From IMG/VR virus record IMGVR_UViG_2718218360_000013: DNA of 40,343 bases; one strand, given 5' to 3'. Every line of letters begins with the position of its first letter. Position 1 is the first letter of the stretch. This document shows, piece after piece, positions 9,470 through 35,705 of this stretch. The DNA is from a virus. Its lineage: Duplodnaviria; Heunggongvirae; Uroviricota; Caudoviricetes. The translations under genes were made by a program, and so were the position numbers. Under the pieces are notes generated by a model that did no database searches, had not been told where the DNA came from, and saw only the letters and a program-made list of their open reading frames with translations.

Positions 9470-10583
9470 TGAATTTAATCCCCTGTTTTTTCATCTGTGC
9501 CCGCACGAAGGCGTCCACGTCACCCGCATTTCCGCTTCCGCTGTTTCCCGGCTCTGCCGGAACAATAAAGCCGTCACGGGGTGCCAGAATCAGACGGGTG
9601 GTTTCGCCGTGATTTGCATCCAGCGAAAACTCCACCTGACAGACAAGAAGATCACGCTCTTCCACTCCGGTGCGGGGAGCCGTGACAGCCGTCAGCAGGT
9701 TGATATCCCACAACTGGCCGTTCTCCCGAAACCAGTGCCGCACGGTGGCTGTCAGGCGCACAGAGCGGGCAACCGCCCGGCGCATTTCCCGGACAGCCCT
9801 CTGGCGTGCACCGTCTGCATCAACAGCATGATCCGCCAGCACAATTTTCGGTCTGTAACGGTGGATGGCACTGTCTGTCACCGTACCAACGGGTGCGGCC
9901 AGCGTTCCGGCTGTCAGTGCATCCCCGGCATGACCACCACCACGCCCGTGCCCCCGTACACGGTATTCACTGTGGCGCAGACGGTGATCCACGTTGTGAT
10001 CCAAATCCAGCAGATTTTCGCCCAGCGTCAGCGTGTCGCCACGCTGACTGCCGGCCTGAGTGAAAACCAGTTCACCGGCGGCATTACTGGTTACCAGGAC
10101 GCCTCTGTGTCTCGCGGCCCGTGTCAGCGCATCTGCCACGGTTTCTGAGTTTTCCAGTGTGAAGGTGGAAAAGGGCCGGGCTGCCGTTGCATCATTTACC
10201 TGCCAGCGCACCGTGACCCCGAACGGAGCACACAAATCTGAAGCAATGTGCTCCAGCGTGCGGTTCCTCCACTGGCTGCCCGGATGAATGGCTGAACAGT
10301 CCACCAGGTCACCGGTTTTATCCCGTCCGCTGAGCGTGATCTGAAAACGCGTGGCGCTGATGCGCTGCCGGACCTGATCCAGCCAGCCAGTGATCACAGG
10401 CTGACCGTCAATGCGCAATTCCAGAGACTGACCGGCACGGACGGATGACGGAAGGCGTACACCGGGCATCATTACCCCCAGTTCAAAGGAGCCCGCCAGA
10501 TGTTCAAGAGAGCGACGAACACTCACCGTCAGCCAGCCGGAAAAAATCTCACCGCCCAGATACAGTTCAACCCTGCTGCTCAC
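9459..10583 (-). CDS. Mu P (gp44)-like baseplate hub protein
   Basis: 374 aa; position after the N-like gene. Confidence 0.7.
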   Translation of the reverse strand: MSSRVELYLGGEIFSGWLTVSVRRSLEHLAGSFELGVMMPGVRLPSSVRAGQSLELRIDGQPVITGWLDQVRQRISATRFQITLSGRDKTGDLVDCSAIHPGSQWRNRTLEHIASDLCAPFGVTVRWQVNDATAARPFSTFTLENSETVADALTRAARHRGVLVTSNAAGELVFTQAGSQRGDTLTLGENLLDLDHNVDHRLRHSEYRVRGHGRGGGHAGDALTAGTLAAPVGTVTDSAIHRYRPKIVLADHAVDADGARQRAVREMRRAVARSVRLTATVRHWFRENGQLWDINLLTAVTAPRTGVEERDLLVCQVEFSLDANHGETTRLILAPRDGFIVPAEPGNSGSGNAGDVDAFVRAQMKKQGIKFNDE

Positions 10584-11937
10584 TAATCACCTCCACTGAA
10601 TGGCCTCCGGGAATGAACAGCGGATCAACAATACCGTTACGGCGCACAAAACGTTGCCAGCCGGTACTGTTCCCGGTGGCACGGTACAGGGTCACCAGTG
10701 CAGGCTCGGTGGTACGTACAGTCACTACTGTTGCACCGGGTAGCTGAACTCCCCGTGTATTCAGATCCTCTGTCAGTGCCAGTCTGGCATCACGAAGCGT
10801 CAGCGCCGTGGCGGTATACCCCTGCCCGGACAGTGTCATCACCTGCCGTTCGAGCGCTTCGCTTAAGTCACGGTTAATGCGCTGAAGATCAACTGAACTT
10901 TCCAGCCAGACAGGCCAGGTACGGTGGGCTGCGTCACTGTCCGGCAGGGTTTCCTGACTGAGAACCTGATCCAGCAGTTTTCCCACGGTCTGTGCCTGGG
11001 CCACCACGGCAGCACTCTGCATTACCGCCCGTATCAGACGAATATTCTTTTGTGCTGCCGGTGTCAGACCGATGAGAGTCTGCGGATTATCCTGCTCATC
11101 CAGCACGTAACGCAGGGAAGATAATGTCCTGTACAGTTGCGGCATTCCCTGAGAGAAGGCGGATGTCGTCCGGCCGATACTGCCACCGGGCCGGGTATTC
11201 AGGCCTCCTGAAGACAGTGACGGCAGCGATGGCAGGGTGATCAGGGCACTGAAAAGCCCCGCAAAAGATGAGGCCATGCGGGAAGGTGCTGTCAGTAATG
11301 CCGTGGCATTCCCTTTCAGCGCCGTGAACGTGGCAGTAAAGGCACTGATATCCTGTACAATCCCCATGCCGGAAACGGCATTTTCCAGGGCGGACACCTT
11401 ATCGCTGATGGTTTCGGTCATTGCCTGGACATCGTGCATTCCGTCAGAAATCACCGTCCAGCCCGCTTCCAGGGTTTCAAAAACCTTCCCGAGCGCGGTG
11501 GTACTCTTCTGCTCCAGAATGGCGGCCGTGTCCTGTGTGACAGCAGGTGCGGTATCATCACTTACCGGCGTGACATTAATGGTGAACTCAACCACGCCCT
11601 GTTCAGCAGCGTTATAACGACTTTCAAAGCTGTTTATCAGCACATTTAACGTGCCGTAATCCGGGTGAAGCAGCTCCCCGGCACCGGGAGCACGAAGGGC
11701 ATCACGCAGACGATTTCGCTGTGTCTGAACATCATCCCCCATCACAAGTACACTGAACGTAAATTCAGCCAGTTTAGGTCCCAGATCGTCTGCACCACCG
11801 GTTTCCCGTAACGGATATTCCCGACGGACAATGTTTCGCCCGCCACGTTCGCGCTGCTCACGCCAGACGAGGAACGGCACACCACGGAACGCACCACGAC
11901 CGTCACCAGAGGCCATAATTCCCTCCGTTCCAGACAT
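10567..11937 (-). CDS. Mu N (gp43)-like DNA circularization protein
   Basis: 456 aa; immediately downstream of the tape measure gene. Confidence 0.7.
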   Translation of the reverse strand: MSGTEGIMASGDGRGAFRGVPFLVWREQRERGGRNIVRREYPLRETGGADDLGPKLAEFTFSVLVMGDDVQTQRNRLRDALRAPGAGELLHPDYGTLNVLINSFESRYNAAEQGVVEFTINVTPVSDDTAPAVTQDTAAILEQKSTTALGKVFETLEAGWTVISDGMHDVQAMTETISDKVSALENAVSGMGIVQDISAFTATFTALKGNATALLTAPSRMASSFAGLFSALITLPSLPSLSSGGLNTRPGGSIGRTTSAFSQGMPQLYRTLSSLRYVLDEQDNPQTLIGLTPAAQKNIRLIRAVMQSAAVVAQAQTVGKLLDQVLSQETLPDSDAAHRTWPVWLESSVDLQRINRDLSEALERQVMTLSGQGYTATALTLRDARLALTEDLNTRGVQLPGATVVTVRTTEPALVTLYRATGNSTGWQRFVRRNGIVDPLFIPGGHSVEVISEQQG

Positions 11938-17691: not shown

Positions 17692-18056
17692 GCACGGGCC
17701 TGTTCCGCTTTGTTACCGGTCTTTTTCCGGGGAGCATCCTGTCCGGCTTCGGCTTCGGCTTCGGCTTCGGCTTCGGCTAAATCTGTACCGGCCACTGCAT
17801 GAACCACACCCGCCACGCTCCCCGCATCATCAGCAGACGTCTGTAGTATTCGCACAGTGAGGCATGGCTCCTCCTCCAGTCGGGCAAGCTGCTCCGGGGT
17901 GACCTCAACCTGCTGACGTCCACGCGTGAACAGGAACCCCGCACGACGAAACGCCGAACGACTGCAACGCACTTCTGCCAGCACCGTGACAGAATTGTCA
18001 CCACTGACCTGAAGACCTGAATCATCTGTTGCTGCCACAGTGTGATGTTCATTCAT
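17688..18056 (-). CDS. Small head-associated protein with (EA)n repeat near the C-terminus
   Basis: 122 aa; directly downstream of the major head gene; contains AEAEAEAEAEAG. Confidence 0.55.
   Translation of the reverse strand: MNEHHTVAATDDSGLQVSGDNSVTVLAEVRCSRSAFRRAGFLFTRGRQQVEVTPEQLARLEEEPCLTVRILQTSADDAGSVAGVVHAVAGTDLAEAEAEAEAEAGQDAPRKKTGNKAEQARA
17745..17777. repeat. Hexanucleotide microsatellite (GGCTTC) x5.5 inside a coding sequence
   Basis: ggcttcggcttcggcttcggcttcggcttcggc read directly from the sequence. Confidence 0.95.
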
Positions 18057-18099: not shown

Positions 18100-19047
18100 T
18101 TACAGATAATCCGCGACAACCAGCTCCAGCTTACCCTTCATCTCGTTAGAGACGGTTGCGTTTCCGTCTGCGAACAGTTCACGCTCCAGCAGCTGCACCG
18201 CCTGTTTTTCCAGCGAGGTGGGGACAACAATATGGGTGGGTTTAATGCCGAGTTTGCGGCCACCGTCAGCGGTAAATTCGCGCATGGCTGACCAGCCGTG
18301 CCACAGTGCATCCAGCGTCAGCGGTGACTGCATCATGTAGGCCATCTGCCAGAAGCCGTAGCCCACATTGCGACGGGCGGATGCACCAAACACAAATTCG
18401 TTATCGGTGAATGCGCGACCTTCATCGACTTTGGTCTGGGCAACCAGTTCAGCCTTACGGCGATCCTGATAAATCAGCGGTTTTACCGCGCGGGAGCAGT
18501 CAAGCAGATACCAGGCCGGACCGCTGTAATCAGCCTGTGCGCCGACAGAGCCGGTTTTTGCCACAAACATATTGCTGACCATCTGCGCATCCCCGGAGCC
18601 ATCCACTTTGGGGTAAACCGGATGTTCGGTATCAAAGAAGTTCTGACCGTCATAGCAGGCCGCACTGATCCCGTCACGCAGGGCAGCAAAGACCAGCTCA
18701 TCCGGTTGTACCGCCGCAGCGCGCCCCATCTCCTGGAACAACGGGGAATAAATACCGAGGTTGTCGTCTTCGAAGTCATCGCGGCTAATGGCGACAGTGC
18801 CTTCAAAAGTTTTGTTCACGATGGCATAGCCATAGGCTTTCATCTTCTCGATGACGCGGGAGCCGATCCACTCACGGAACTGCGGGAACTGCCCCAGCCA
18901 GCCGTAGGTGTTGGATTTCGATGTGGAGGGCACGGTCATCGCAATTTTTTTATACTGCGACGGGGCCATGGACATCCCGGCCTGAAAATCAGAACGGTAG
19001 CCCGTCATCAGGGCTGTGATCATCGCCGGTGTAATCGGGGTAGGCAT
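18100..19047 (-). CDS. Major head subunit (Mu T-like)
   Basis: 315 aa; follows the protease/scaffold gene. Confidence 0.8.
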   Translation of the reverse strand: MPTPITPAMITALMTGYRSDFQAGMSMAPSQYKKIAMTVPSTSKSNTYGWLGQFPQFREWIGSRVIEKMKAYGYAIVNKTFEGTVAISRDDFEDDNLGIYSPLFQEMGRAAAVQPDELVFAALRDGISAACYDGQNFFDTEHPVYPKVDGSGDAQMVSNMFVAKTGSVGAQADYSGPAWYLLDCSRAVKPLIYQDRRKAELVAQTKVDEGRAFTDNEFVFGASARRNVGYGFWQMAYMMQSPLTLDALWHGWSAMREFTADGGRKLGIKPTHIVVPTSLEKQAVQLLERELFADGNATVSNEMKGKLELVVADYL

Positions 19048-20171
19048 TATTGCATTTCCTCTTTCATTTTCAGGAACTCGGCTTCGGTTTTACCCAGCAG
19101 TTTGGCGGCCGCGATATCTTCAGCCGACAGCGCAGCGGTGGCAGTCTTTTTATCCGGCACGGTCACGGTGTCGGTCTGAAGAGAGGTCAGGGCCGCAACC
19201 GGCTGGCGGGCGTCAAGCTGTGCAGAAAGTGCCGCAACGCCAATCTGCCCGCCCAGTTGTTCCAGATAGCCGCGTTCGCTTTTGAAGATGCGCCCTTCGG
19301 ATTCAGCCTTGTCCAGCACCTGCTCCAGCGTGGTGCTGCCGTGCTGCGCCGACAGCGCAACGTATTCGGTACGCAGGGCGTTATACGTTTCAACGGGCAC
19401 GTATTTCGTCAGATCAATAATGCCGCCAGCCGGTGTGCCTTTTGCGGTTTCCAGCTCTGCCGACAGACTGGCGACCTGTGTTTTCAGGTTGTCGTGTGCA
19501 TCCGCACGGGTTTTGATCCCGGTGAGGGCAGACAGCGCCGCCGTGCCCAGCTCCGGCGTAAATTCGTCACCGTCAGCCACGGTCAGACCGAGCGCCGTCA
19601 GCAACTGGCGTAATTGCTCATTCATGGAGGTATCCTTTAAAGGAGGGTTTAAGGCGTTATAAAGGTCATCCGCCGACAGCGCGGCGACAGGATTCATGCC
19701 GGTCAGACCGGGGTCACCGGTAATAGCCAGCATCCGAAGTTCGACAGGTTCGCCGGTGTTCTCGTCATAGCCAATCACCGGTGAAAACCAGGGGAATTCG
19801 TTATTACGCAGATGTTCAAGGGCCGGAGGGTTCCACTTCGGGCGCACCTCGAAGCCACGCTCTTCACTGAAGCGAAAATTCTCCGGTGAGGCCATCACAA
19901 AACCGGCAGCCGGTGCCTGATGCCCCTTAATCAGGGTCTGGTGGTTGTAGTCAATTTTCACCGGCTGATTGAGCGCCACAACCCGGGATACCATGCGCTC
20001 AACGGTCGCACGGTTAATCAGCCAGCCCTCGGCCGGTTTTTCCGGGCGACCGTCACGGGCCTTTACCCGACCGGCTGGCATGATCTGACACCAGTCACCG
20101 TCCCCGTCTGCGGACAGGCTGATGGCATTCAGAATGGCATAAGCAAGTTTGGGCGTGTTTTTCGTCTTCAT
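19047..20171 (-). CDS. Head protease/scaffold protein (Mu I-like)
   Basis: 374 aa; position between the G-like and T-like genes. Confidence 0.8.
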   Translation of the reverse strand: MKTKNTPKLAYAILNAISLSADGDGDWCQIMPAGRVKARDGRPEKPAEGWLINRATVERMVSRVVALNQPVKIDYNHQTLIKGHQAPAAGFVMASPENFRFSEERGFEVRPKWNPPALEHLRNNEFPWFSPVIGYDENTGEPVELRMLAITGDPGLTGMNPVAALSADDLYNALNPPLKDTSMNEQLRQLLTALGLTVADGDEFTPELGTAALSALTGIKTRADAHDNLKTQVASLSAELETAKGTPAGGIIDLTKYVPVETYNALRTEYVALSAQHGSTTLEQVLDKAESEGRIFKSERGYLEQLGGQIGVAALSAQLDARQPVAALTSLQTDTVTVPDKKTATAALSAEDIAAAKLLGKTEAEFLKMKEEMQ

Positions 20172-20347
20172 TCCGGCAGCATAAGCCGGGAATTTTCAGG
20201 GCGGGTTTTGCGGGATTTCAGGAAGTGCTTCCAGGGGAAAAATACAAAGGCGCTTCACGCAGATTTTAAAGCCCGTTAAATACAGGTTAGAAAATCACGA
20301 CACGCGCCTGAAGGGGGTAAGGTAATGCATTTGCATACCTTAAACAA
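20172..20347. promoter_or_regulatory. Central G-I intergenic region: candidate late promoter and strong gyrase site equivalent
   Basis: 176-bp non-coding gap near the middle of the prophage; near-palindrome AAGGTAATGCATTTGCATACCTT at 20319-20341. Confidence 0.35.
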
Positions 20348-20821
20348 TTAAGGCGTTTCTGTGGCCTTTTTAAAGCGTTTTCTGATTTCGTCCATGATCT
20401 CCTGCTCTGCCACCTGATCAAAGCCCATATACGGGCGTGCGCCAATGGCCGCCGGTCCCGGTGGCATACCAGGCAGGCCACCCCACTGATGAATGGCCGC
20501 ATAAGGCTCATTTGATCCAATCAGCGCCCAGGTATCGCCATAATCCGTGGTCAGGCGTCGGGCCAGATCGCCGTTCAGCGTCAGGATTTTGCCGGGCATG
20601 TATCCCTTACGGGTACGCCACTTGCGGTAAGGATCTGACCAGTCATGCCAGCGTTCGCCGTCCGGCTCTTTTTCCTGTTCAAACGCCATTTCTGACGATG
20701 ACAGAAGACTCGCCGCCACACTGCGGGCCAGGTCTTTCCCTCCACCCACAAACTGAAGCCGGGCAAAGACCCGCTGGAGACGCGTAACGTCAACAACGAC
20801 AGCGGCATCAATGGATGACAT
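20348..20821 (-). CDS. Virion morphogenesis protein (Mu G-like)
   Basis: 157 aa; position. Confidence 0.7.
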   Translation of the reverse strand: MSSIDAAVVVDVTRLQRVFARLQFVGGGKDLARSVAASLLSSSEMAFEQEKEPDGERWHDWSDPYRKWRTRKGYMPGKILTLNGDLARRLTTDYGDTWALIGSNEPYAAIHQWGGLPGMPPGPAAIGARPYMGFDQVAEQEIMDEIRKRFKKATETP

Positions 20822-20942
20822 ATTGCCTCCGCATAAAGGATGAATATAAAATAAACAGGCGGTCAGTGTACGCTTAACTGGTAAAGTCGGTGCCTGCCTC
20901 CGGGTGGATCATGTATGCGGGTTCAACCCCCGCCACTGACCG

Positions 20943-22274
20943 TTAATCAATATCTCCTTCCAGTACCTCAAGCATTCCACCCCGGATATCCGATTTCAGC
21001 TTATCCATATTGATAACCCGGTAAGCATTCACAATCACATCCAGTTTATCCGGCTGACGCTTCAGGCTGTACGGCGCATTAACGGCAATCTGCACACTGC
21101 TATCCTTACTTTCCACGATATACATCAGATTGTTGTGGCGTTTGTCCCACAGCACCGCTTTTGGCTTTGCCAGCATTGCCGGTAATCGACCGAAATCCTC
21201 CGGCGTCAGGGCGATACCGTCATTCTGATGTTTCATGCTGTCCGCATGGAGCACATTTTTACCGCTCATCGCCAGCAGGCGGGCCGGTGGCGTTCCCGTC
21301 CGGCTTTCCACCGCCTGCGCAATGCTTTCGGTCATAAAGCCCAGCGTGCGGATATCGTTACCGCCTCGCCGGGTTTTCATGATGTTTTTTGCCCAGATGC
21401 GGAACGCCAGCTGCCGCTCCGGGCTGTTGTTCATCTCCTGCACTACCATTTCCCGCAGCGCCGGGCTTTTCACCTCGATCAGTTTACGGATCAACGCCTG
21501 GTCTGTGCCGAACGCCGCCGAGCCGGGGTTATATGACCAGCCCACATCCGGTGTCATGGTTCTGGTGCCATCTGAATATGTGGTCACCGGCATTTCTCTG
21601 ACTTCTCCGGTCTGCTTATCCACGCCAGCCTCAACATTGCGGGTGGAAAGATGATCCTGACCGGATGAAACGGATAACCCCATTGCATCCAGACGGGTCT
21701 GAGACAATGGCCGGACACGGCAGCGGCAGTTCCAGCCATTGGGTGGGTAGTGTGTATTCCAGAACGGATCGTCATAGCGGAATACCTGCCCGTTAAGGGC
21801 GGAATGCGCCGGGCGGGTGCGGCTGTCCATCACCGCCACATACTGCCAGAACGGATGCGTGTCCGTGTTGTTCATCATCTGCGTGTAACGCCCGGCATTG
21901 TAAGCCACGCGGGTGTTCACGTTGTAAATCAGCGCCAGACGGCGGGGACTGCCCAGTTGCACTTCTTCTGCGTTACCGGCGCTGTCCACCACAATCTGCT
22001 TTCCCCACCATCCCAGCTTTTGCAGGCGGGGTGTCAGTGTGCGGATAAATGCTTTCTGTGAAATCCCCTCATCAACAGCACGCTGCACTTCCGCCTGTAG
22101 TGTGGTCAGTACGTCCAGGCGTGCCACTTTTGCCGCCGTGAATGAACGGGCATGAACATCCGCGTCTGTTTCGAACCAGTTCCAGCTGATATGCGCCCCT
22201 TTGGCGCGGAAGTATGCCACCGCCTCTTTTGAGGGAAGCGTGGCGGCATAACCTAAATCAATCCCCTGTGCCAT
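20943..22274 (-). CDS. Head morphogenesis protein (Mu F-like)
   Basis: 443 aa downstream of the portal gene. Confidence 0.75.
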   Translation of the reverse strand: MAQGIDLGYAATLPSKEAVAYFRAKGAHISWNWFETDADVHARSFTAAKVARLDVLTTLQAEVQRAVDEGISQKAFIRTLTPRLQKLGWWGKQIVVDSAGNAEEVQLGSPRRLALIYNVNTRVAYNAGRYTQMMNNTDTHPFWQYVAVMDSRTRPAHSALNGQVFRYDDPFWNTHYPPNGWNCRCRVRPLSQTRLDAMGLSVSSGQDHLSTRNVEAGVDKQTGEVREMPVTTYSDGTRTMTPDVGWSYNPGSAAFGTDQALIRKLIEVKSPALREMVVQEMNNSPERQLAFRIWAKNIMKTRRGGNDIRTLGFMTESIAQAVESRTGTPPARLLAMSGKNVLHADSMKHQNDGIALTPEDFGRLPAMLAKPKAVLWDKRHNNLMYIVESKDSSVQIAVNAPYSLKRQPDKLDVIVNAYRVINMDKLKSDIRGGMLEVLEGDID

Positions 22275-23856
22275 CCAGCATCCCCTTCATTTCCGCAGCA
22301 AACATGGCATCACTGAGCAGCGTCATCAGGCGGGAATCATCCATTTCACGGTAAAGGGCAGGCAGGTCTGCCAGTGCCTCCGCCAGCCCCCGCGTTCTGA
22401 TGGCTTCAATGACCGGCTCCAGTACCGGGTCGATGGCCTCCTGTAACCGGCGGGCAGGCACCGCATCCCCCATGTCGTCCAGTTCATCTCGGGGGCTGCT
22501 CTTCGCTTCCGGCAGTCTGGCAGCCAGCGCTGTCTGCTCTGTCTTCTCCTGTTTTTCCGGTGGCATCTCTTTGTCTGTCTGAGCAGGTTCATTGCCACTC
22601 TGACGGACACGGAAGATGGCTTCACCGGGGGCAGGCTGTGGAATACCGGTCTGCTCCCGCACCCAGGGATCAGGAATATCCATCCCCGTACTGAGCTGCA
22701 TCACCGCACTGGTGATTTTGGTGATATCCCCCGGCTCTTTTGTCTGGAAACAGATACGCGGCAGGCGACGGATATCAATGGCGTGGGCGGTGTTCAGGGC
22801 ATACAGCGGATACACCAGATCGCGGTTCAGCGTGGCGGCCAGCTGACGTAAATCAGAATCCCTGATTTCCCGGCGCACCTCGTTATGCACTTCACCCAGC
22901 GAACGTGCGCCCTTGTCTCCGGCTTCCGTGGTCAGCGTGCCGCCGAGGATAGCTTTGGAGATGGAACGCTCCCCCCACGAAATCATGGTTTCAAACGGAT
23001 CGGCCTGACCGTTCGCTGCCGCCTGAAACTCCAGCGACATCCCGGCCGGGATGATCCCGCCTGTACGTCGCCCGATATCCATCACCGCCCGCATCAGGGC
23101 GCTTTTCTGCTCCGGTGTTGCCCCGGACGGGTATTTACCGACCTTCATCGGCAGGCCGTACACCTCCAGAAATTCAGCCAGATCGCGCACGGAATAGTTT
23201 TTGAAAATGAACGGCCAGATAAGCGTTCTGACAAGCCCCGTCGCACCACCGTAGCCAGTGCGTGAACGCGACTGATGCACTATCCAGCCAAAGGGCTGAA
23301 ACGCCACCCCGGCATGGCTGCCGTCACGCAGCCGCAGTTCGCTCAAATCATCCGGGTTAAGGCAGAAATGCCCGCTGTCACGCCAGCGGATGGCGCGGAT
23401 GATGTGCATTTTACCGAGCATCCCGTGCTCAATCTCCATACAGGAATAGCCCTTCAGGATGGCATCGGTGGCATCAAACAGCATGGCATCAAACCAGTCG
23501 GCGGAATGCAGATATTCGTCGAGCATTTCCGCGTCCTTTTTCTCATTCGCGCTGGCGTTCGGGGGCGGCTCAATACTCCAGGACACCCCCTGAATGGCAA
23601 GGCGTCGCTTGCCCAGCTCTGCAAAAAGGTGGGTATCCTTTTCTTCAATGTCAGCGGCCAGATCGGACTGGGCAATCAGATCGCCACGTTCAGCTCCGCG
23701 AAGGCACTGTGCCGCCCGGTTCGGGGTGATACCCGAGGCCGGATGTTCAATATAACGGCTGGCAATCTGCGGAATATCCAGCACGGCACTCTGCATCTCC
23801 GGGTCAAAGGAGAAAGGTTTTCCGTCAAGATCAATTATGCGTCCCACTACCAGCAC
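22258..23856 (-). CDS. Portal protein (Mu gp29-like)
   Basis: 532 aa directly downstream of the terminase large subunit. Confidence 0.8.
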   Translation of the reverse strand: MLVVGRIIDLDGKPFSFDPEMQSAVLDIPQIASRYIEHPASGITPNRAAQCLRGAERGDLIAQSDLAADIEEKDTHLFAELGKRRLAIQGVSWSIEPPPNASANEKKDAEMLDEYLHSADWFDAMLFDATDAILKGYSCMEIEHGMLGKMHIIRAIRWRDSGHFCLNPDDLSELRLRDGSHAGVAFQPFGWIVHQSRSRTGYGGATGLVRTLIWPFIFKNYSVRDLAEFLEVYGLPMKVGKYPSGATPEQKSALMRAVMDIGRRTGGIIPAGMSLEFQAAANGQADPFETMISWGERSISKAILGGTLTTEAGDKGARSLGEVHNEVRREIRDSDLRQLAATLNRDLVYPLYALNTAHAIDIRRLPRICFQTKEPGDITKITSAVMQLSTGMDIPDPWVREQTGIPQPAPGEAIFRVRQSGNEPAQTDKEMPPEKQEKTEQTALAARLPEAKSSPRDELDDMGDAVPARRLQEAIDPVLEPVIEAIRTRGLAEALADLPALYREMDDSRLMTLLSDAMFAAEMKGMLDGTGD

Positions 23857-28073: not shown

Positions 28074-28144
28074 TGTTACGCTGTCTCATGATGTTCTCTG
28101 AGTCAGCGTAACGGTGAAGGAAAGGCGGCAGGCTTTGCGGAATA

Positions 28145-28570
28145 TCAGAAAAGTGGCGGTTGTGTTCTTGCCAGATGCAGACGGCGCTGTTCACGTATGA
28201 CGGTATAAATCTGGGTTTCTGACATCCGGTAATGGCGGCGAAGGGATTCAATTTTCTCGCCCCGGTCCCAGCGCGAAAATATCTCATTGTTTCGCAGCTC
28301 GGCAAAGAGAGATTCCCCGACCGGCAGGTAATAACCCCGTCCGCCCATATAGGCTGCCTGAGCCGCAGCCACCTTGCGTGCCAGTTTGCCGGCCAGTACC
28401 GGCTCAATCCCCTGACGCTGAAGTTCTGCGCCGGTGACTTCAACCAGTTCTGACAGGGTCCGCGGCCAGTTCTTTTTGAGAACATCATCAGGGATGTCAT
28501 CAAGGCGGTCGATAAGGGCGTGCAGTTGCTCACTGTCACCACCAAACATGCTCATCTGAGTTTCTGCCAT
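28145..28570 (-). CDS. Mor/C-family transcriptional activator
   Basis: C-terminal HTH RRHYRMSETQIYTVIREQRRL resembles Mu Mor/C; lies between gemA and the lysis genes. Confidence 0.7.
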   Translation of the reverse strand: MAETQMSMFGGDSEQLHALIDRLDDIPDDVLKKNWPRTLSELVEVTGAELQRQGIEPVLAGKLARKVAAAQAAYMGGRGYYLPVGESLFAELRNNEIFSRWDRGEKIESLRRHYRMSETQIYTVIREQRRLHLARTQPPLF

Positions 28571-29149: not shown

Positions 29150-29442
29150 GCTGTATCAACACTCCTGCGGATATGATAGGTATTATTTTCCCGATCGAGC
29201 TGAACCCGATACTCCGGAGGAATCACAAAAATATTAAAACCATCATCAGTTTTTATTCTTGAGTAGCATTCCCCCTTATGATATCTGGCCAGTGCATTAA
29301 TCAGAGAAGTCGCAGCCTGCCCAATCAGGTATTTTTTATGAAAAATACTGATAACTTTCCGGCACAGCCATCGTGTAATGACGAATGCACCGAAAAAGGA
29401 TGTGATATATAAATACCAGAACAACTGCGAACTACTGTCCAT
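29146..29442 (-). CDS. Hypothetical membrane protein (98 aa), low-GC cassette
   Basis: N-terminal TM helix LFWYLYITSFFGAFVITRWL; AT-rich codons. Confidence 0.45.
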   Translation of the reverse strand: MDSSSQLFWYLYITSFFGAFVITRWLCRKVISIFHKKYLIGQAATSLINALARYHKGECYSRIKTDDGFNIFVIPPEYRVQLDRENNTYHIRRSVDTA

Positions 29443-29629
29443 TATCTTTCTCCTTATTCAGTCTTCTGCGGCATTCGGCACAGTCATCAGGGCTTTCAAA
29501 TGTATCCGGCTCGCGATTATGAGCCAGATATAACCACCGTCCACATATACTGATATTTTCGCCTGTTTTAAAAAAATGATGCTTCCTGGCCATTAGTGGC
29601 CGCGCCCATCCAGCGGGTAGACTATTCAT
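29432..29629 (-). CDS. Hypothetical small Cys-containing protein (65 aa), low-GC cassette
   Basis: ICGRW ... CAEC spacing suggests a metal-binding knuckle; AT-rich. Confidence 0.4.
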   Translation of the reverse strand: MNSLPAGWARPLMARKHHFFKTGENISICGRWLYLAHNREPDTFESPDDCAECRRRLNKEKDNGQ

Positions 29630-29957
29630 TTGCTTTATCCTCCATGCTGGACAGAATCATATGTATTAATGTCGGGCGTGGAGATATACGCATTTCATTA
29701 AGCGTCTGAAGGGCAGCAACAGCTGCCTGTTTATCGGTGCCTTTGGCAATTTCAGCAAGAGAATGCACAATCCATAATGGGCTTAACGCTACGGCTGAAT
29801 GCAGAATCATGTCATCCATAATAATTTCTGGCATATCCCGTTTGTCACATTCTTTATCCATAAAAGAAACGATTTTTTCTGCATCTTCCGGTTTCATGCC
29901 TCCGGCGATGAGAATTTTACGATATTCATAAGACGATCTTAATTCAATACTCATCAT
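29622..29957 (-). CDS. Hypothetical protein (111 aa), low-GC cassette
   Basis: ORF with overlapping start/stop coupling to neighbours; no recognisable motif. Confidence 0.45.
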   Translation of the reverse strand: MMSIELRSSYEYRKILIAGGMKPEDAEKIVSFMDKECDKRDMPEIIMDDMILHSAVALSPLWIVHSLAEIAKGTDKQAAVAALQTLNEMRISPRPTLIHMILSSMEDKANE

Positions 29958-29969
29958 TCACCTGCCTGT

Positions 29970-30362
29970 TTAATCAGTTTCCAGTGCTTTGCTACGGGCA
30001 ACAGCCTCACACTCAAAAAATACCGACTCCGGCACACGCTCCTTTAATTCACGAACAAGAAAATCATTAACGAGTTCATGACGTCTTATATTTCTTTCCT
30101 TTTCCTCCTGGCGCAATACAGCAAGGCGGTATTCAACAGTCCGGCGTTGTTTCTGAAAGACAGCCAGTGCTTTTCTGGCAGAGTTACGCAATGTATCATC
30201 GCCACAGGGTTCGTATTCAAGCTGAAATTTAATCTCTTCAATGGTTTCTTTTATTTTTGCCAGCAAGCTAAGACAGTCGCTGATTGTCTTCAGTTTTTCA
30301 TTATCAATATAACTTCTCACGCATTCACCTCCCGTCATTCCGGTAAAGCTGAAATATGGCAC
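29970..30362 (-). CDS. Hypothetical coiled-coil protein (130 aa), low-GC cassette
   Basis: Charged helical repeats (EEIKFQLEYE, RLAVLRQEEKERNIRRHEL). Confidence 0.45.
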   Translation of the reverse strand: MPYFSFTGMTGGECVRSYIDNEKLKTISDCLSLLAKIKETIEEIKFQLEYEPCGDDTLRNSARKALAVFQKQRRTVEYRLAVLRQEEKERNIRRHELVNDFLVRELKERVPESVFFECEAVARSKALETD

Positions 30363-30646
30363 CAGTGCGTCACCTGTCCGTCCTCATCTTCAAGGCAGGC
30401 TCCGGTTTCTTCATCAATAAAAAAGCCTTCATACCCCATATGGCCGATGCGCAGTTCCTGTTGGTCACCATACTGAACAATCAGCACGACAGCCTCCATA
30501 TCAGGCGGGAAAGCATCATTCAGTGAATGCCAGGGATAACCGCGCAAATCCCCGAAATAAACACCGGTCAGCGTTCCGCCACAGACCGGCATTCCGACGG
30601 CACACACAAGGGGTTCATCTGATTCAACAAATAATGTCGTTATCAT
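30335..30646 (-). CDS. Hypothetical protein (103 aa)
   Basis: ORF in the early accessory operon. Confidence 0.45.
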   Translation of the reverse strand: MITTLFVESDEPLVCAVGMPVCGGTLTGVYFGDLRGYPWHSLNDAFPPDMEAVVLIVQYGDQQELRIGHMGYEGFFIDEETGACLEDEDGQVTHWCHISALPE

Positions 30647-31194
30647 GGCATTAATTCCCGTAATACAACATCTTCGGCAGTCCGACGACGGTGATAAATA
30701 AAACTCACCGTGCCCTCGGATAATTCAAATTTCTCGCCGATTTCCCTAAAGGTAAGACGCCGTGGTGATTCAGCATCCCGTAATTCACGAATAAGACGAA
30801 CATCATCGTCAGGTATGCGGGTGAAGGGCAGCAACTCTCCGTATTTTTTCATGCTTACGCCAATATATCGCGCCCGATTGTGGACAGAATCCCGGTCTCG
30901 CCCCAGATATTCTCCTATTTGCTTACCGGTCATTGTTCTGGCATTTTTTCGGATAAATTTATCTTCATCAGGTTTAAATCTGAGGCGTTTGCATTTGAGC
31001 AACTCCGGGTAAGTACCGCGTAATAAAACAATCCGGTTATGTACACCCCAGAAACTTCTTTTTATCCTGACAGCAATATCCTTAACCGGGGTGGATGGAT
31101 AAAGCGCAATCAGCAGCGCATCTTCTTCAGGTGTCCATGCGCGAACATGAGCGGGTGCACGGCCTTTTCTCCCCATGGGTTGTAATATCATCAT
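30643..31194 (-). CDS. Putative DNA-binding protein with up to three HTH-like segments
   Basis: WTPEEDALLIALY (Myb/SANT-like), TGKQIGEYLGRDRDSVHNRARYIG, LTFREIGEKFELSEGTVSFIYHRR. Confidence 0.5.
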   Translation of the reverse strand: MMILQPMGRKGRAPAHVRAWTPEEDALLIALYPSTPVKDIAVRIKRSFWGVHNRIVLLRGTYPELLKCKRLRFKPDEDKFIRKNARTMTGKQIGEYLGRDRDSVHNRARYIGVSMKKYGELLPFTRIPDDDVRLIRELRDAESPRRLTFREIGEKFELSEGTVSFIYHRRRTAEDVVLRELMP

Positions 31195-31197
31195 GCA

Positions 31198-31713
31198 TCA
31201 CCCCCTGACTCGCTTTTCAGCAGCATAAAACTCATCAGACAGAATTTCGGTCATTTTCTGATTTGCGGGTTTTACGCCGCACTCAAGGTAAATCACATCG
31301 TCAACGCAGAACCACTTCACAGGGCCAAACATGATTGCCGAGAAATCAATACCCAGCCAGAACAACAGTGCATCGGTTCTGGCATACGTGACGGGCGAAT
31401 ATTCACGCCACAGACTGTTAAGTTCGTCAGAGGCAACGCGCAGGGCTTTGGGAATACGTGATGTGCGCGGTGTGCAGCTCCAGCCATTCGACGCAGTCGG
31501 TTTTCGCCATAAGTCGCGATGAAAAGGATATTTGTCATCCATAAAGCGCAGCCCTTTAAAACAAAAGCCACTGATACCGGATACAAATACCGACCGGCAC
31601 GCAACATTCAGCACGGCCTCAAGGCGTTTTGCCTCATCCTTAACTTTCTGGCAGTCCTGCTGATATTTTTGCCACGCGGCCAGCGCGGAAGGGTTTGATG
31701 TTTTAAAGAACAT
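31198..31713 (-). CDS. Hypothetical protein (171 aa)
   Basis: ORF in the early accessory operon. Confidence 0.45.
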   Translation of the reverse strand: MFFKTSNPSALAAWQKYQQDCQKVKDEAKRLEAVLNVACRSVFVSGISGFCFKGLRFMDDKYPFHRDLWRKPTASNGWSCTPRTSRIPKALRVASDELNSLWREYSPVTYARTDALLFWLGIDFSAIMFGPVKWFCVDDVIYLECGVKPANQKMTEILSDEFYAAEKRVRG

Positions 31714-34548: not shown

Positions 34549-34776
34549 TTAGCTGACTTGTTTCGCACCAACAGAACGGCATATTCCGCTGTAAACGTCT
34601 GTCGCACCTTCGCGATCAAGTCCGGCAGATATCACCATTCGTGTGCGGTCATTAAATTCAAAAAGTAAATCGCCACATTCTTTATTTTCGGCCAGTGAAA
34701 TCACCTTCACGTTATCGAAATTAACCAGGTAAAAGCGTCCGTAAATATCAGGAATATTAAATACCGCCATAATCAC
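34549..34776 (-). CDS. Hypothetical early protein at the position of Mu kil (75 aa)
   Basis: Immediately downstream of the B-like gene with ATGA overlap. Confidence 0.4.
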   Translation of the reverse strand: MIMAVFNIPDIYGRFYLVNFDNVKVISLAENKECGDLLFEFNDRTRMVISAGLDREGATDVYSGICRSVGAKQVS

Positions 34777-35705
34777 ACCTGTGAGAGTAATTCAGGGTTG
34801 GTATAAACCTCTTTAAAGGCCGCATTAATATGTTTTTCTGTCAGCGCCGCGCCTTCACCGCTGGCGGTGAGCCACGCCTGGTTAAGCGTATGTGTCAGAA
34901 CGCGTAACGCTCCCGGCTTTTCAGCGATAGCCTGCATGACGGCCAGCTCGGCCTCACCACTGATCCCCCACGCCCTGGCAATGGCCAGCACATCCGCCTT
35001 TTTGGCCTTGCGAAGTTGTTTTGTACGGGCAAGACGGCTGAACAGGCGCGATAAATCATCAAAGGCGCGGCGTCCACCTTTAAACAATCCGCGCGGGTTA
35101 CCAATAAGCACCATCCCGATCCCCGTGGCGTCCTGAATTGCCCGGAGTTGCTCCAGACCGTCAATACCCAGATGATCCGCCTCATCCACAATCACCAGTC
35201 CACGCGTTCCCATCAGGCGACGGCGGATGGCGCGGGATAATGCCCCTTTGTTCGCGCGGGTGTAATCAATCCCCAGCGCATCGGCCAGCTCCAGCAGACA
35301 CTCCGTGACGCTGGAGTGCGCGGGTGACAGGGTGATCATCCAGGTGTTTGGTTGCTCCTGGCAGTAATTACGGGCAGTGGCCGTTTTACCCACACCCGGT
35401 ACGCCCACAATAACGTTAATACAGCCCATCAGACGAACCGCCTGAAACAGTGCGCGCAGCTCCTGGACTGTCTGCGTTTCCACAAACTGCGGCGGTTCCG
35501 GCAGTGCGCTTTGTTTATTCCAGTTTTCATACCAGGAACGCAGGGAAGCAGCCACAGCGGCGTTATCGCCTTTATATTTCCCCTTGCGGAAAGCCGATAA
35601 TGTGCCGTCGGAAATTCCCGCCTCTCTGGCGATGGCATACTGCGTCAGTACGCCGCCATCAATAAGTTCATCAATGGTCTTGATTACATCGTTAATATCA
35701 GTCAT
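34773..35705 (-). CDS. MuB-like transposition ATPase
   Basis: Walker A GVPGVGKT and Walker B LVIVDEADHL; N-terminal HTH; directly after the transposase gene. Confidence 0.9.
   Translation of the reverse strand: MTDINDVIKTIDELIDGGVLTQYAIAREAGISDGTLSAFRKGKYKGDNAAVAASLRSWYENWNKQSALPEPPQFVETQTVQELRALFQAVRLMGCINVIVGVPGVGKTATARNYCQEQPNTWMITLSPAHSSVTECLLELADALGIDYTRANKGALSRAIRRRLMGTRGLVIVDEADHLGIDGLEQLRAIQDATGIGMVLIGNPRGLFKGGRRAFDDLSRLFSRLARTKQLRKAKKADVLAIARAWGISGEAELAVMQAIAEKPGALRVLTHTLNQAWLTASGEGAALTEKHINAAFKEVYTNPELLSQV

What the first reader, a model, noticed from the sequence alone, without database searches (positions are those of the whole stretch)
20172..20347. Central non-coding region between G and I as a strong-gyrase-site candidate
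Mu carries a strong gyrase site in the G-I intergenic region at the genome centre that promotes end synapsis during replicative transposition. This prophage has a 176-bp gap at the same place, about 19 kb from the c end of a ~39-kb element, with a near-palindrome AAGGTAATGCATTTGCATACCTT. It probably also holds the late promoter for the head operon.
Basis: partly seen in the sequence, partly recalled or inferred. Interest (0 to 1): 0.45.

Follow-up and report, generated by a model that had tools for sequence, protein, structure and literature searches.

The report
Known central gyrase site of Sp18-type Mu-like prophage

Summary
Window 20172..20347 is a 176-bp non-coding gap between Mu G-like (20348..20821, -) and Mu I-like (19047..20171, -) genes. 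The quoted near-palindrome is at 20319..20341. The gap lies 18.8-19.0 kb from the c end (window 39140) of a ~39.3-kb transposable prophage, 48% of its length; in Mu the gyrase cut is at 48.7%.

The prophage is 98-99% identical to Sp18 of E. coli O157:H7 Sakai. The gap differs from Sp18 at 1 of 176 bases (20184), outside the gyrase part. A 2023 review states that the SGS of the Sakai Mu-like prophage was the only tested site that could replace the Mu SGS (Oram & Pato 2004).

A 34-nt block (20306..20273) is 79% identical to the Mu SGS right arm, at the same offset from the G stop. This places the expected 4-bp cut at about 20328..20331, in the palindrome centre.

The gap also carries a terminator-like hairpin with a T-run (20309..20238, -) and a late-promoter element (20221..20200, -) repeated upstream of the lysis gene.

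The palindrome is not statistically unusual, is absent from Mu, and its inner part varies among relatives.

Verdict: interpretation supported, already known, low interest.

The parts
20172..20347 (-). G-I intergenic region (176 bp) of the Mu-like prophage. It holds the SGS core and right arm, a terminator-like hairpin and the late promoter for I.
   Evidence: ORFs; Pfam of the flanking genes; 175/176 identical to the Sakai Sp18 gap; same layout as Mu 17860..18055, annotated with a gyrase cut site, a terminator and the late promoter.
20318..20342 (.). Near-palindrome TAAGGTATGCAAATGCATTACCTTA (minus strand), the presumed G-segment core of the gyrase site.
   Evidence: Sequence; folds; aligns with the Mu core AGGCATAAAATCAGCC. 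Not statistically unusual. The inner part varies among E. coli variants without compensation.
20328..20331 (.). Predicted 4-bp staggered gyrase cut, inferred by homology and not resolved.
   Evidence: The Mu overhang 17876..17879 is gap index 16-19 after the G stop and 22 nt before the conserved block. The same indices in the window give 20331..20328. A recalled Lockshon-Morris consensus instead prefers 20321..20324.
20245..20311 (-). SGS right arm, on the I-proximal side. It contains the 34-nt block 20306..20273 homologous to Mu 17901..17934, with A/T tracts at about +36, +48, +61 and +84 from the predicted cut.
   Evidence: Ungapped 27/34 match at an identical offset; local score 20 against shuffles 9.2 +/- 1.3, maximum 16, 0 of 1000 reaching it. 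94-100% identical in five divergent E. coli variants. Tract positions read directly.
20238..20309 (-). Terminator-like element for the upstream late (lys-to-G) transcript: long imperfect hairpin 20309..20248, then TTTGTATTTTT 20248..20238. It overlaps the right arm.
   Evidence: RNA fold -35.7 kcal/mol, z = -3.63, 0 of 200 shuffles as stable. Mu has a TransTermHP-predicted terminator at the same place, 17908..17953. The simple terminator scan found nothing.
20200..20221 (-). 22-nt late-promoter element CTGAAATCCCGCAAAACCCGCC, a candidate binding site for the prophage's C-like activator or core of PI.
   Evidence: Second copy CTGATATTCCGCAAAGCCTGCC at 28127..28148 (-), upstream of the lysis gene; no other copy at up to 3 mismatches. 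Aligns with the Mu PI/Plys stretch TTTTCCCGCACCTCCCGC / TAATCCCGCACCTGCC. Conserved in variants.
20178..20183 (-). Candidate -10 hexamer TATGCT, 16 nt downstream of the 22-nt element.
   Evidence: The same spacing to TACGCT is seen at the lys copy. It is invariant in all E. coli variants, whereas the alternative GAAAAT is not. No consensus sigma-70 promoter was found, as expected for an activator-dependent promoter. The transcription start is not determined.
20348..20821 (-). Mu G homologue (virion morphogenesis), last gene of the upstream late operon.
   Evidence: Pfam Phage_tail_S 9.4e-34; 54.6% amino-acid identity to Mu G.
19047..20171 (-). Mu I homologue (protease/scaffold), first gene of the head operon.
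   Evidence: Pfam Mu-like_Pro 1.5e-76.
28127..28148 (-). Second copy of the 22-nt late element, between the C-like activator gene and the lysozyme gene (Plys position).
28145..28570 (-). C-like late activator (Mor/C family), the presumed factor acting at the late promoters.
   Evidence: Pfam Mor 2.8e-32; 39% identical to Mu C, E = 4e-35.
35777..37867 (-). MuA-type transposase, whose end synapsis the SGS is thought to assist.
   Evidence: Pfam Mu-transpos_C and HTH_Tnp_Mu_1.

Best explanation
The gap is the central strong gyrase site (SGS) region of an Sp18-type Mu-like transposable prophage.

Proposed mechanism: DNA gyrase binds the core just after the G stop codon and cuts with a 4-bp stagger, most likely near 20328..20331. 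The I-proximal 'right arm' (about 20311..20245, with A/T tracts roughly once per helical turn) wraps on a GyrA C-terminal domain and supplies the T segment. This makes supercoiling unusually processive. Because the site sits at the middle of the ~39-kb element, the plectonemic loop that grows from it brings the two prophage ends together. The MuA-type transposase can then synapse them, so that replicative transposition starts promptly after induction.

The same 176 bp also does ordinary regulatory work. A hairpin with a T-run ends the lys-to-G late transcript, and an activator-dependent late promoter (22-nt element plus TATGCT) starts the I/head transcript.

Shown here: position, anatomy, homology with the Mu SGS right arm, near-identity with the Sakai site, and conservation.
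Shown in the literature for the Sakai sequence: it substitutes for the Mu SGS in replication.
Inferred: the exact cut position, right-arm wrapping in this element, the terminator, and the promoter start site.
For: Gene order H-F-G-gap-I-T, with MuA, MuB, C and Mom homologues.

Mu annotation: gyrase cut site 20 nt after the G stop, then a terminator, then PI, then I. The cut was cross-checked against the 133-bp Mu SGS fragment of Sutormin et al. 2018.

Central position: 47.9% of the element length against 48.7% in Mu.

The gap is 175/176 identical to Sakai Sp18, with core and right arm 100% identical.

Review PMC10052514: the Sakai prophage SGS was the one site that could replace the Mu SGS, and the right arm is essential. 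[quoted passage not shown] PMC13284261: removing the right arm abolishes preferential gyrase activity, and the right arm carries the T segment.

The 34-nt right-arm block is 79% identical to Mu at an identical offset from the G stop, with 0 of 1000 shuffles reaching its score. The G coding DNA is only ~68.5% identical.

The right-arm block is 94-100% identical in five variants, even where gene I has been replaced by a 56%-identical allele.

From my own knowledge of the abstract of Oram & Pato 2004 (not held in the library): the E. coli prophage site was cleaved specifically by gyrase in vitro and in vivo, enhanced processive supercoiling, and markedly enhanced replication and lysis of a Mu lacking its SGS.
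Against: No gyrase assay can be run here. The primary paper could not be read, so the exact PCR fragment tested from Sakai and its mapped cut site are not verified.

The two computational surrogates for gyrase preference were not informative. Matching to the published 133-bp Topo-Seq consensus put even the known Mu SGS at rank ~2000 in Mu. A 10-11 bp A/T periodicity score put the Mu right arm at only the 75th-95th percentile and the window right arm at the 56th-89th.

The window lacks Mu's first A/T tract (ATTTTTTAAAA at about +15).

Conservation of the right-arm block could equally reflect its terminator hairpin.

The recalled Lockshon-Morris consensus favours a cut 7 bp away from the homology-based one.
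Confidence: 0.85

Rival explanations
1. The gap is only an ordinary regulatory spacer: the terminator of the lys-to-G late operon plus the C-dependent promoter of the head operon. Any gyrase binding is incidental and without a role in transposition.
For: A terminator-like hairpin with a T-run folds well (z = -3.63) and overlaps the conserved block. A 22-nt element is shared with the lys promoter region. Mu has a predicted terminator and PI at the same place. The computational gyrase surrogates were uninformative.
Against: The literature reports that the Sakai prophage site, identical here over the core and right arm, functionally replaces the Mu SGS. The CGCG...GATTTT part of the conserved block lies outside the Mu terminator hairpin yet is conserved between Mu and the window. 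The central position is kept in both phages. The two roles are not exclusive.
Confidence: 0.08
2. The near-palindrome is the functional unit: an operator for a dimeric DNA-binding protein, or an RNA hairpin protecting the 3' end of the G message.
For: 7-bp outer arms plus a bulged inner stem directly after the G stop. The hairpin is predicted in both RNA and DNA folds (z = -3.36 for the chosen 37-mer). The outer arms are kept in most variants.
Against: 213 loci in the window fold at least as stably. The inner stem changes in three variants are not compensatory: TACAAACGCA twice, and TGCAAACGTA, which only preserves a G-T wobble. Mu has no palindrome at the homologous place. No second copy of the palindrome was seen, so there is no hint of a repeated operator.
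Confidence: 0.07

Closest known systems
SGS of prophage Sp18, E. coli O157:H7 Sakai (NC_002695.2 5059233..5059408, between ECs_4972 and ECs_4973)
   Same: Same prophage type (98-99% identity over 37.5 kb). The gap is 176 bp in both and 175/176 identical. Core and right arm are identical. Same central position. Reported to substitute for the Mu SGS.
   Different: One base differs (window 20184 T, Sakai C), just upstream of the candidate -10. The window copy is inserted in ureC rather than sorM. It has an unrelated repressor region and some early-region replacements.
Bacteriophage Mu strong gyrase site (AF083977 cut at 17876..17879, G-I intergenic)
   Same: Same location between G and I, at 48-49% of the genome. 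Same order: cut, terminator, PI, I. A core AGG(C/T)AT sits 9-10 nt after the G stop. The 34-nt right-arm block is 79% identical at the same offset, with A/T tracts in the same phase at about +36, +49, +61 and +84.
   Different: The gap is 196 bp in Mu against 176 bp here. Mu has no palindrome at the core. Mu has an extra A/T tract (ATTTTTTAAAA) at about +15. The rest of the gap is not alignable with confidence. The proteins are only ~55% (G) and 39% (C) identical.
Mu late promoter PI (C-dependent; Margolin, Rao & Howe 1989, as annotated in AF083977 17977..18043)
   Same: Immediately upstream of I, with no sigma-70 consensus -35. A C homologue is encoded in the element. The CCCGCA-rich stretch is shared with Mu PI and Plys.
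   Different: The Mu C-box half-site CATAAyCCC is not present. The window uses its own 22-nt element. The predicted start lies at or next to the I ATG, unlike Mu's roughly 20-26 nt leader, which I estimated from the annotated promoter span (inference).

Membership tests
Mu-type strong gyrase site (SGS) | Lies in the G-I intergenic region at the centre of a transposable Mu-like prophage | tested here: met
   Gap 20172..20347 lies between the G and I homologues. It sits at 47.9% of a ~39.3-kb element, against 48.7% in Mu.
Mu-type strong gyrase site (SGS) | Sequence homology to an experimentally defined SGS | tested here: met
   175/176 identical to the Sakai Sp18 gap. The 34-nt right-arm block is 27/34 identical to Mu at the same offset, with 0 of 1000 shuffles reaching the score.
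Mu-type strong gyrase site (SGS) | Right arm with an extended set of phased A/T (anisotropic bending) signals | tested here: inconclusive
   Direct reading shows A/T tracts at about +36, +48, +61 and +84 from the predicted cut, matching Mu's phase. The periodicity statistic did not single out even the Mu right arm, which scored at the 75th-95th percentile; the window arm scored at the 56th-89th.
Mu-type strong gyrase site (SGS) | High score with the Topo-Seq gyrase position-weight matrix | not testable with these tools
   The matrix (Table DS10) is cut off in the held supplement. Matching to the consensus string failed the Mu positive control.
Mu-type strong gyrase site (SGS) | Efficient, specific quinolone-induced gyrase cleavage and processive supercoiling | not testable with these tools
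   Reported for the Sakai prophage site by Oram & Pato 2004 (own knowledge of the abstract; paper not held). The review calls it an SGS.
Mu-type strong gyrase site (SGS) | Supports rapid Mu replication when placed at the Mu centre | not testable with these tools
   The literature reports this only for the Sakai site: it was the 'one exception' among all sites tested (PMC10052514).
Mu C-dependent late promoter (PI) | Upstream of I, no -35 consensus, a shared upstream element with the other late promoters, and a C-family activator in the element | tested here: met
   No sigma-70 consensus was found. The 22-nt element occurs upstream of I and of lys only. The C homologue is 39% identical to Mu C. 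No copies were found at the P or mom positions.
Mu C-dependent late promoter (PI) | Mu C-box CATAAyCCC about 37-43 bp upstream of the start | tested here: not met
   All four Mu promoters have a close form of it, with the last bases varying at Pmom; the window regions do not. This fits a diverged activator specificity, so the window element works like PI but is not a Mu-C-box promoter.
Intrinsic (Rho-independent) terminator | GC-rich hairpin directly followed by a U-run at the end of an operon | tested here: inconclusive
   A 62-nt imperfect hairpin is followed by UUUGUAUUUUU (z = -3.63). The pattern scan reported none. The Mu counterpart is only a TransTermHP prediction.

The most novel reading that the evidence does not exclude
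The gap may be a tightly overlapped triple-function module. The gyrase right arm would be the same DNA as the terminator hairpin of the upstream late operon. The late promoter for I, made of a prophage-specific 22-nt activator element plus TATGCT, would fire at or within a base of the I start codon and give a leaderless or nearly leaderless head-gene message. If true, Sp18-type phages would use a different late-activator recognition sequence and a different translation-initiation mode for the head operon than Mu.
Probability: 0.12. Interest if true: 0.35.

Novelty: already known. Interest (0 to 1): 0.12.

Why it matters
The Mu SGS is the strongest natural gyrase site known. It is a standard substrate for gyrase structural and single-molecule work, and it explains how a 37-39-kb transposon finds its own two ends. 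The Sp18-type site is the only natural sequence reported to replace it. The short list of features the two share (offset from G, the 34-nt right-arm block, tract phasing) is therefore a useful minimal comparison for what makes a gyrase site 'strong'. For this window the practical value is annotation. The prophage occurs in 227 of 5426 complete E. coli genomes, mostly STEC, with up to four copies per genome and at different insertion sites. It carries an intact central SGS, consistent with a still mobile element. Nothing here changes current understanding.

Tried and rejected
1. Scoring with the published 133-bp Topo-Seq gyrase consensus, by base matches and by S/W matches. The known Mu SGS ranked only ~1300-3900 in Mu, so the surrogate fails its positive control and says nothing about the window. 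The real matrix is not in the held supplement.

2. A 10-11 bp A/T periodicity (Fourier) score for 50-100 bp arms. It was not discriminating for Mu or the window.

3. The Lockshon-Morris cleavage consensus, recalled from memory. It is a weak control (Mu site in the top 3.2%). It prefers a cut at 20321..20324 rather than the homology-based 20328..20331, so the cut site is left unresolved.

4. The simple promoter/terminator pattern scan found nothing in 19900..20600.

5. The Rfam scan of the region found nothing.

6. I sought more distant relatives through genome contigs with the G protein. Only two loci came back. tblastn against phages gave only Mu, D108, SfMu and Yersinia Mu-like phages, the inserted Mu-like element in two Stx phages, and one partial Pasteurella phage match. 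Deep phylogenetic footprinting was therefore not possible.

7. I tried to read Oram & Pato 2004, Oram et al. 2006 and Harshey's Mu review. None is held.

8. I considered the palindrome as the defining feature and rejected it. It is not unusual in stability, not conserved in its inner part, and absent from Mu.

Full report
OBSERVATION

All genes around the finding are on the minus strand. The I-like protease/scaffold gene is 19047..20171. The G-like gene is 20348..20821, with its stop TAA at 20350..20348. F is 20943..22274, the portal is 22258..23856 and the major head protein T is 18100..19047. Pfam confirms each: Mu-like_Pro 1.5e-76, Phage_tail_S 9.4e-34, Phage_Mu_F, Portal_Mu and gpT. The gap 20172..20347 is therefore exactly 176 bp.

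The quoted near-palindrome is present at 20319..20341 on the + strand. With one more pair it becomes TAAGGTA/TACCTTA, 20318..20342. The gap is also a local GC minimum, 43% against 56-65% in most of the adjoining 100-bp windows.

WHAT ELEMENT THIS IS

The window holds MuA (35777..37867) and MuB (34773..35705), a C/Mor-family activator (28145..28570), GemA, Gin and Mom (1..738). The G-I region is 100% identical to a large number of complete E. coli genomes, mostly O157:H7 and other STEC. In total 227 of 5426 genomes carry it, with up to four copies per genome.

I fetched E. coli O157:H7 Sakai and found the annotated 'prophage Sp18, Mu-like phage' at 5040971..5079729. Its G is ECs_4972, its I is ECs_4973, and the gap between them is 176 bp. 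BLAST of the window against Sp18 gives 98-99% identity over 37.5 kb. The c end (attL) falls at window 39140, and window base 1 corresponds to Sp18 position 38626 of 38759. The element is thus ~39,273 bp long, and its last 133 bp lie outside the window.

The palindrome centre (20330) is 18.8 kb from the c end, 47.9% of the length. The window gap differs from the Sakai gap at a single base, 20184 (T here, C in Sakai). This lies next to the candidate -10, far from the core and right arm.

COMPARISON WITH MU

The Mu record annotates the following in order:
- G ends at 17859.
- Gyrase cut site at 17879/17880.
- Predicted terminator at 17908..17953.
- Late promoter PI at 17977..18043.
- I starts at 18056.

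The 133-bp 'Mu SGS' fragment in the supplement of Sutormin et al. 2018 (PMC6379681) maps to Mu 17812..17944 with one mismatch. It is centred so that the 4-bp overhang is 17876..17879 (AATC), which agrees with the annotation. The Mu cut is at 48.7% of the genome.

A local alignment of the two gaps gives one ungapped block. Mu gap index 41-75 is CGCGCCACGGGATTTTTAAACCGGTATTTAACGG. Window gap index 41-75 is CGCGTGTCGTGATTTTCTAACCTGTATTTAACGG (20306..20273). The match is 27/34, at the same distance from the G stop in both. The score is 20 against 9.2 +/- 1.3 (maximum 16) in 1000 dinucleotide shuffles. That is more conserved than the G coding DNA, which is ~68.5% identical. [quoted passage not shown]

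A core AGG(C/T)AT follows the G stop by 9-10 nt in both. Carrying the Mu overhang over by either anchor (the G stop or the conserved block) gives 20331..20328, the centre of the palindrome.

Reading the sequences directly, A/T tracts sit at about +36.5, +48.5, +61 and +84.5 from that cut in the window. In Mu they sit at +36.5, +49.5, +60.5, +72 and +82.5. Mu has an additional tract at about +15 that the window lacks.

LITERATURE

- PMC10052514 recounts that Pato tried many gyrase sites at the Mu centre. [quoted passage not shown]' It adds that the left arm is dispensable while the right arm is essential.
- PMC13284261 confirms that removing the right arm abolishes preferential gyrase activity, and that the right arm carries the T segment in the cryo-EM structure.
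- The primary paper (Oram & Pato 2004) is not held. From my own knowledge of its abstract, the E. coli prophage site was cleaved by gyrase in vitro and in vivo, enhanced processive supercoiling, and markedly enhanced replication and lysis. The Haemophilus and Salmonella sites did not, and the Neisseria sites helped only slightly.

CONSERVATION

I aligned the window with five E. coli variants whose 421-bp G-I stretch (the query) is 86-97% identical to the window, plus Sakai and Mu.
- The right-arm/terminator block 20311..20245 is 94-100% identical. This holds even in two prophages where gene I has been replaced by a 56%-identical allele, with the mosaic junction at the I start.
- The stretch 20244..20222 is the most variable, at 70-87%.
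- In the palindrome, the outer arms are mostly kept. The inner part changes to TACAAACGCA or TGCAAACGTA without compensation, so a hairpin is not what is being conserved.
- As single-stranded DNA the palindrome folds at about -5.5 kcal/mol, and 213 separate loci in the window do at least as well.

A more distant relative, an Edwardsiella anguillarum prophage (G 61% identical), has CGTCACGGCGTTTTTGAAAGG and phased TTTGAAAG repeats downstream of G. This is reminiscent of the same right-arm design.

OTHER FUNCTIONS IN THE GAP

Terminator. Folding the minus-strand RNA gives the palindrome hairpin and a 62-nt imperfect hairpin at 20309..20248, followed by UUUGUAUUUUU. The energy is -35.7 kcal/mol, z = -3.63, and 0 of 200 shuffles are as stable. 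This sits where Mu has its predicted terminator, so the right arm and the terminator overlap in both phages.

Promoter. Upstream of I there is a 22-nt element CTGAAATCCCGCAAAACCCGCC (20221..20200). Its only other copy in the window is CTGATATTCCGCAAAGCCTGCC at 28148..28127, between the C-like gene and the lysozyme gene, which is the Plys position. Both copies are followed after 16 nt by TAyGCT. Among the variants TATGCT is invariant, while the alternative GAAAAT is not. The element aligns with the CCCGCAC stretch of Mu PI and Plys. The Mu C-box CATAAyCCC is absent, which fits a C homologue only 39% identical to Mu C. With TATGCT as the -10, the start would fall at or next to the I ATG. This is an inference only.

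NEGATIVE OR UNINFORMATIVE TESTS

- The Topo-Seq consensus string and A/T periodicity fail or barely pass the Mu positive control, so they are not used.
- A recalled Lockshon-Morris consensus prefers 20321..20324, so the cut position is stated only as within about 20320..20335.
- The pattern scan for promoters and terminators and Rfam found nothing.

CONCLUSION

The site is the Sp18-type SGS, identical over its functional part to the Sakai sequence that has already been tested as a substitute for the Mu SGS. The emphasis on the palindrome is misplaced. The informative features are the position and the right arm shared with Mu. Novelty: already known. Interest: low.

Noticed in passing
window 39129..40343 (-), junction at 39140: The prophage c end abuts a truncated urease alpha-subunit gene: ureC is 404 aa here, with Urease_alpha and Amidohydro_1 domains. 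This copy is therefore inserted in ureC, whereas Sakai Sp18 interrupts sorM. Together with up to four copies per genome, this points to recent transposition.
   Followed up: partly
window about 38278..38968 (c repressor region; ORF 38156..38869 +): There is no BLAST similarity to Sp18 across the repressor region, although the first 172 bp of the end and everything from ner/A onward match at 98-100%. This looks like a heteroimmune variant, as with Mu and D108. The repressor ORF has no Pfam hit.
   Followed up: no
window 20200..20221 and 28127..28148 (-), with TAyGCT 16 nt downstream of each: A 22-nt element is shared by the presumed PI and Plys promoters. With TATGCT as the -10, the I transcript would start at or next to its ATG, a possibly leaderless head-operon message. 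No matching copies were found at the expected PP or Pmom positions.
   Followed up: partly
window 20822..20942: A 121-bp non-coding gap lies between F and G. In Mu these genes overlap. It contains a GC-rich inverted repeat (GGCGGGGGTTGAACCCGC). Its function was not examined.
   Followed up: no
window 2120..4159 (-): A 679-aa cargo gene lies between gin and com/mom, carrying SASA (sialate O-acetylesterase) and DUF6645 domains. It is a NanS-p-like esterase typical of STEC prophages and is absent from Mu.
   Followed up: no
L005 and L006 (E. coli 2015C-3121 and 23CRST049), gene I from its start codon: In these variants G and the whole intergenic region are of the Sp18 type (96-100% identical), but gene I is a different allele (~56% identical). 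The mosaic junction lies at or next to the I start codon.
   Followed up: partly
window about 20143..20247: This is one of the two to four strongest 10-11 bp A/T-periodic stretches in the whole window. It spans the late promoter and the I start, 80-180 bp from the predicted cut. It might be an extension of the right arm or promoter curvature. The statistic was not validated on Mu.
   Followed up: no
L010 1981..2160 (Edwardsiella anguillarum prophage): Downstream of a G homologue lie phased TTTTTGAAAG repeats and a CGTCACGGCGTTTTTGAAAGG stretch resembling the Mu/Sp18 right arm. A minus-strand gene (2159..2512) is inserted before the expected I gene.
   Followed up: partly
window about 29150..29970 and 30640..31310 (early region): Two stretches of the early/semi-essential region have no or lower similarity to Sp18. 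The BLAST pieces break at reverse-complement positions 9704..10375 and 11010..11188, and the piece between them is 95.6% identical. These are replaced accessory early genes.
   Followed up: no
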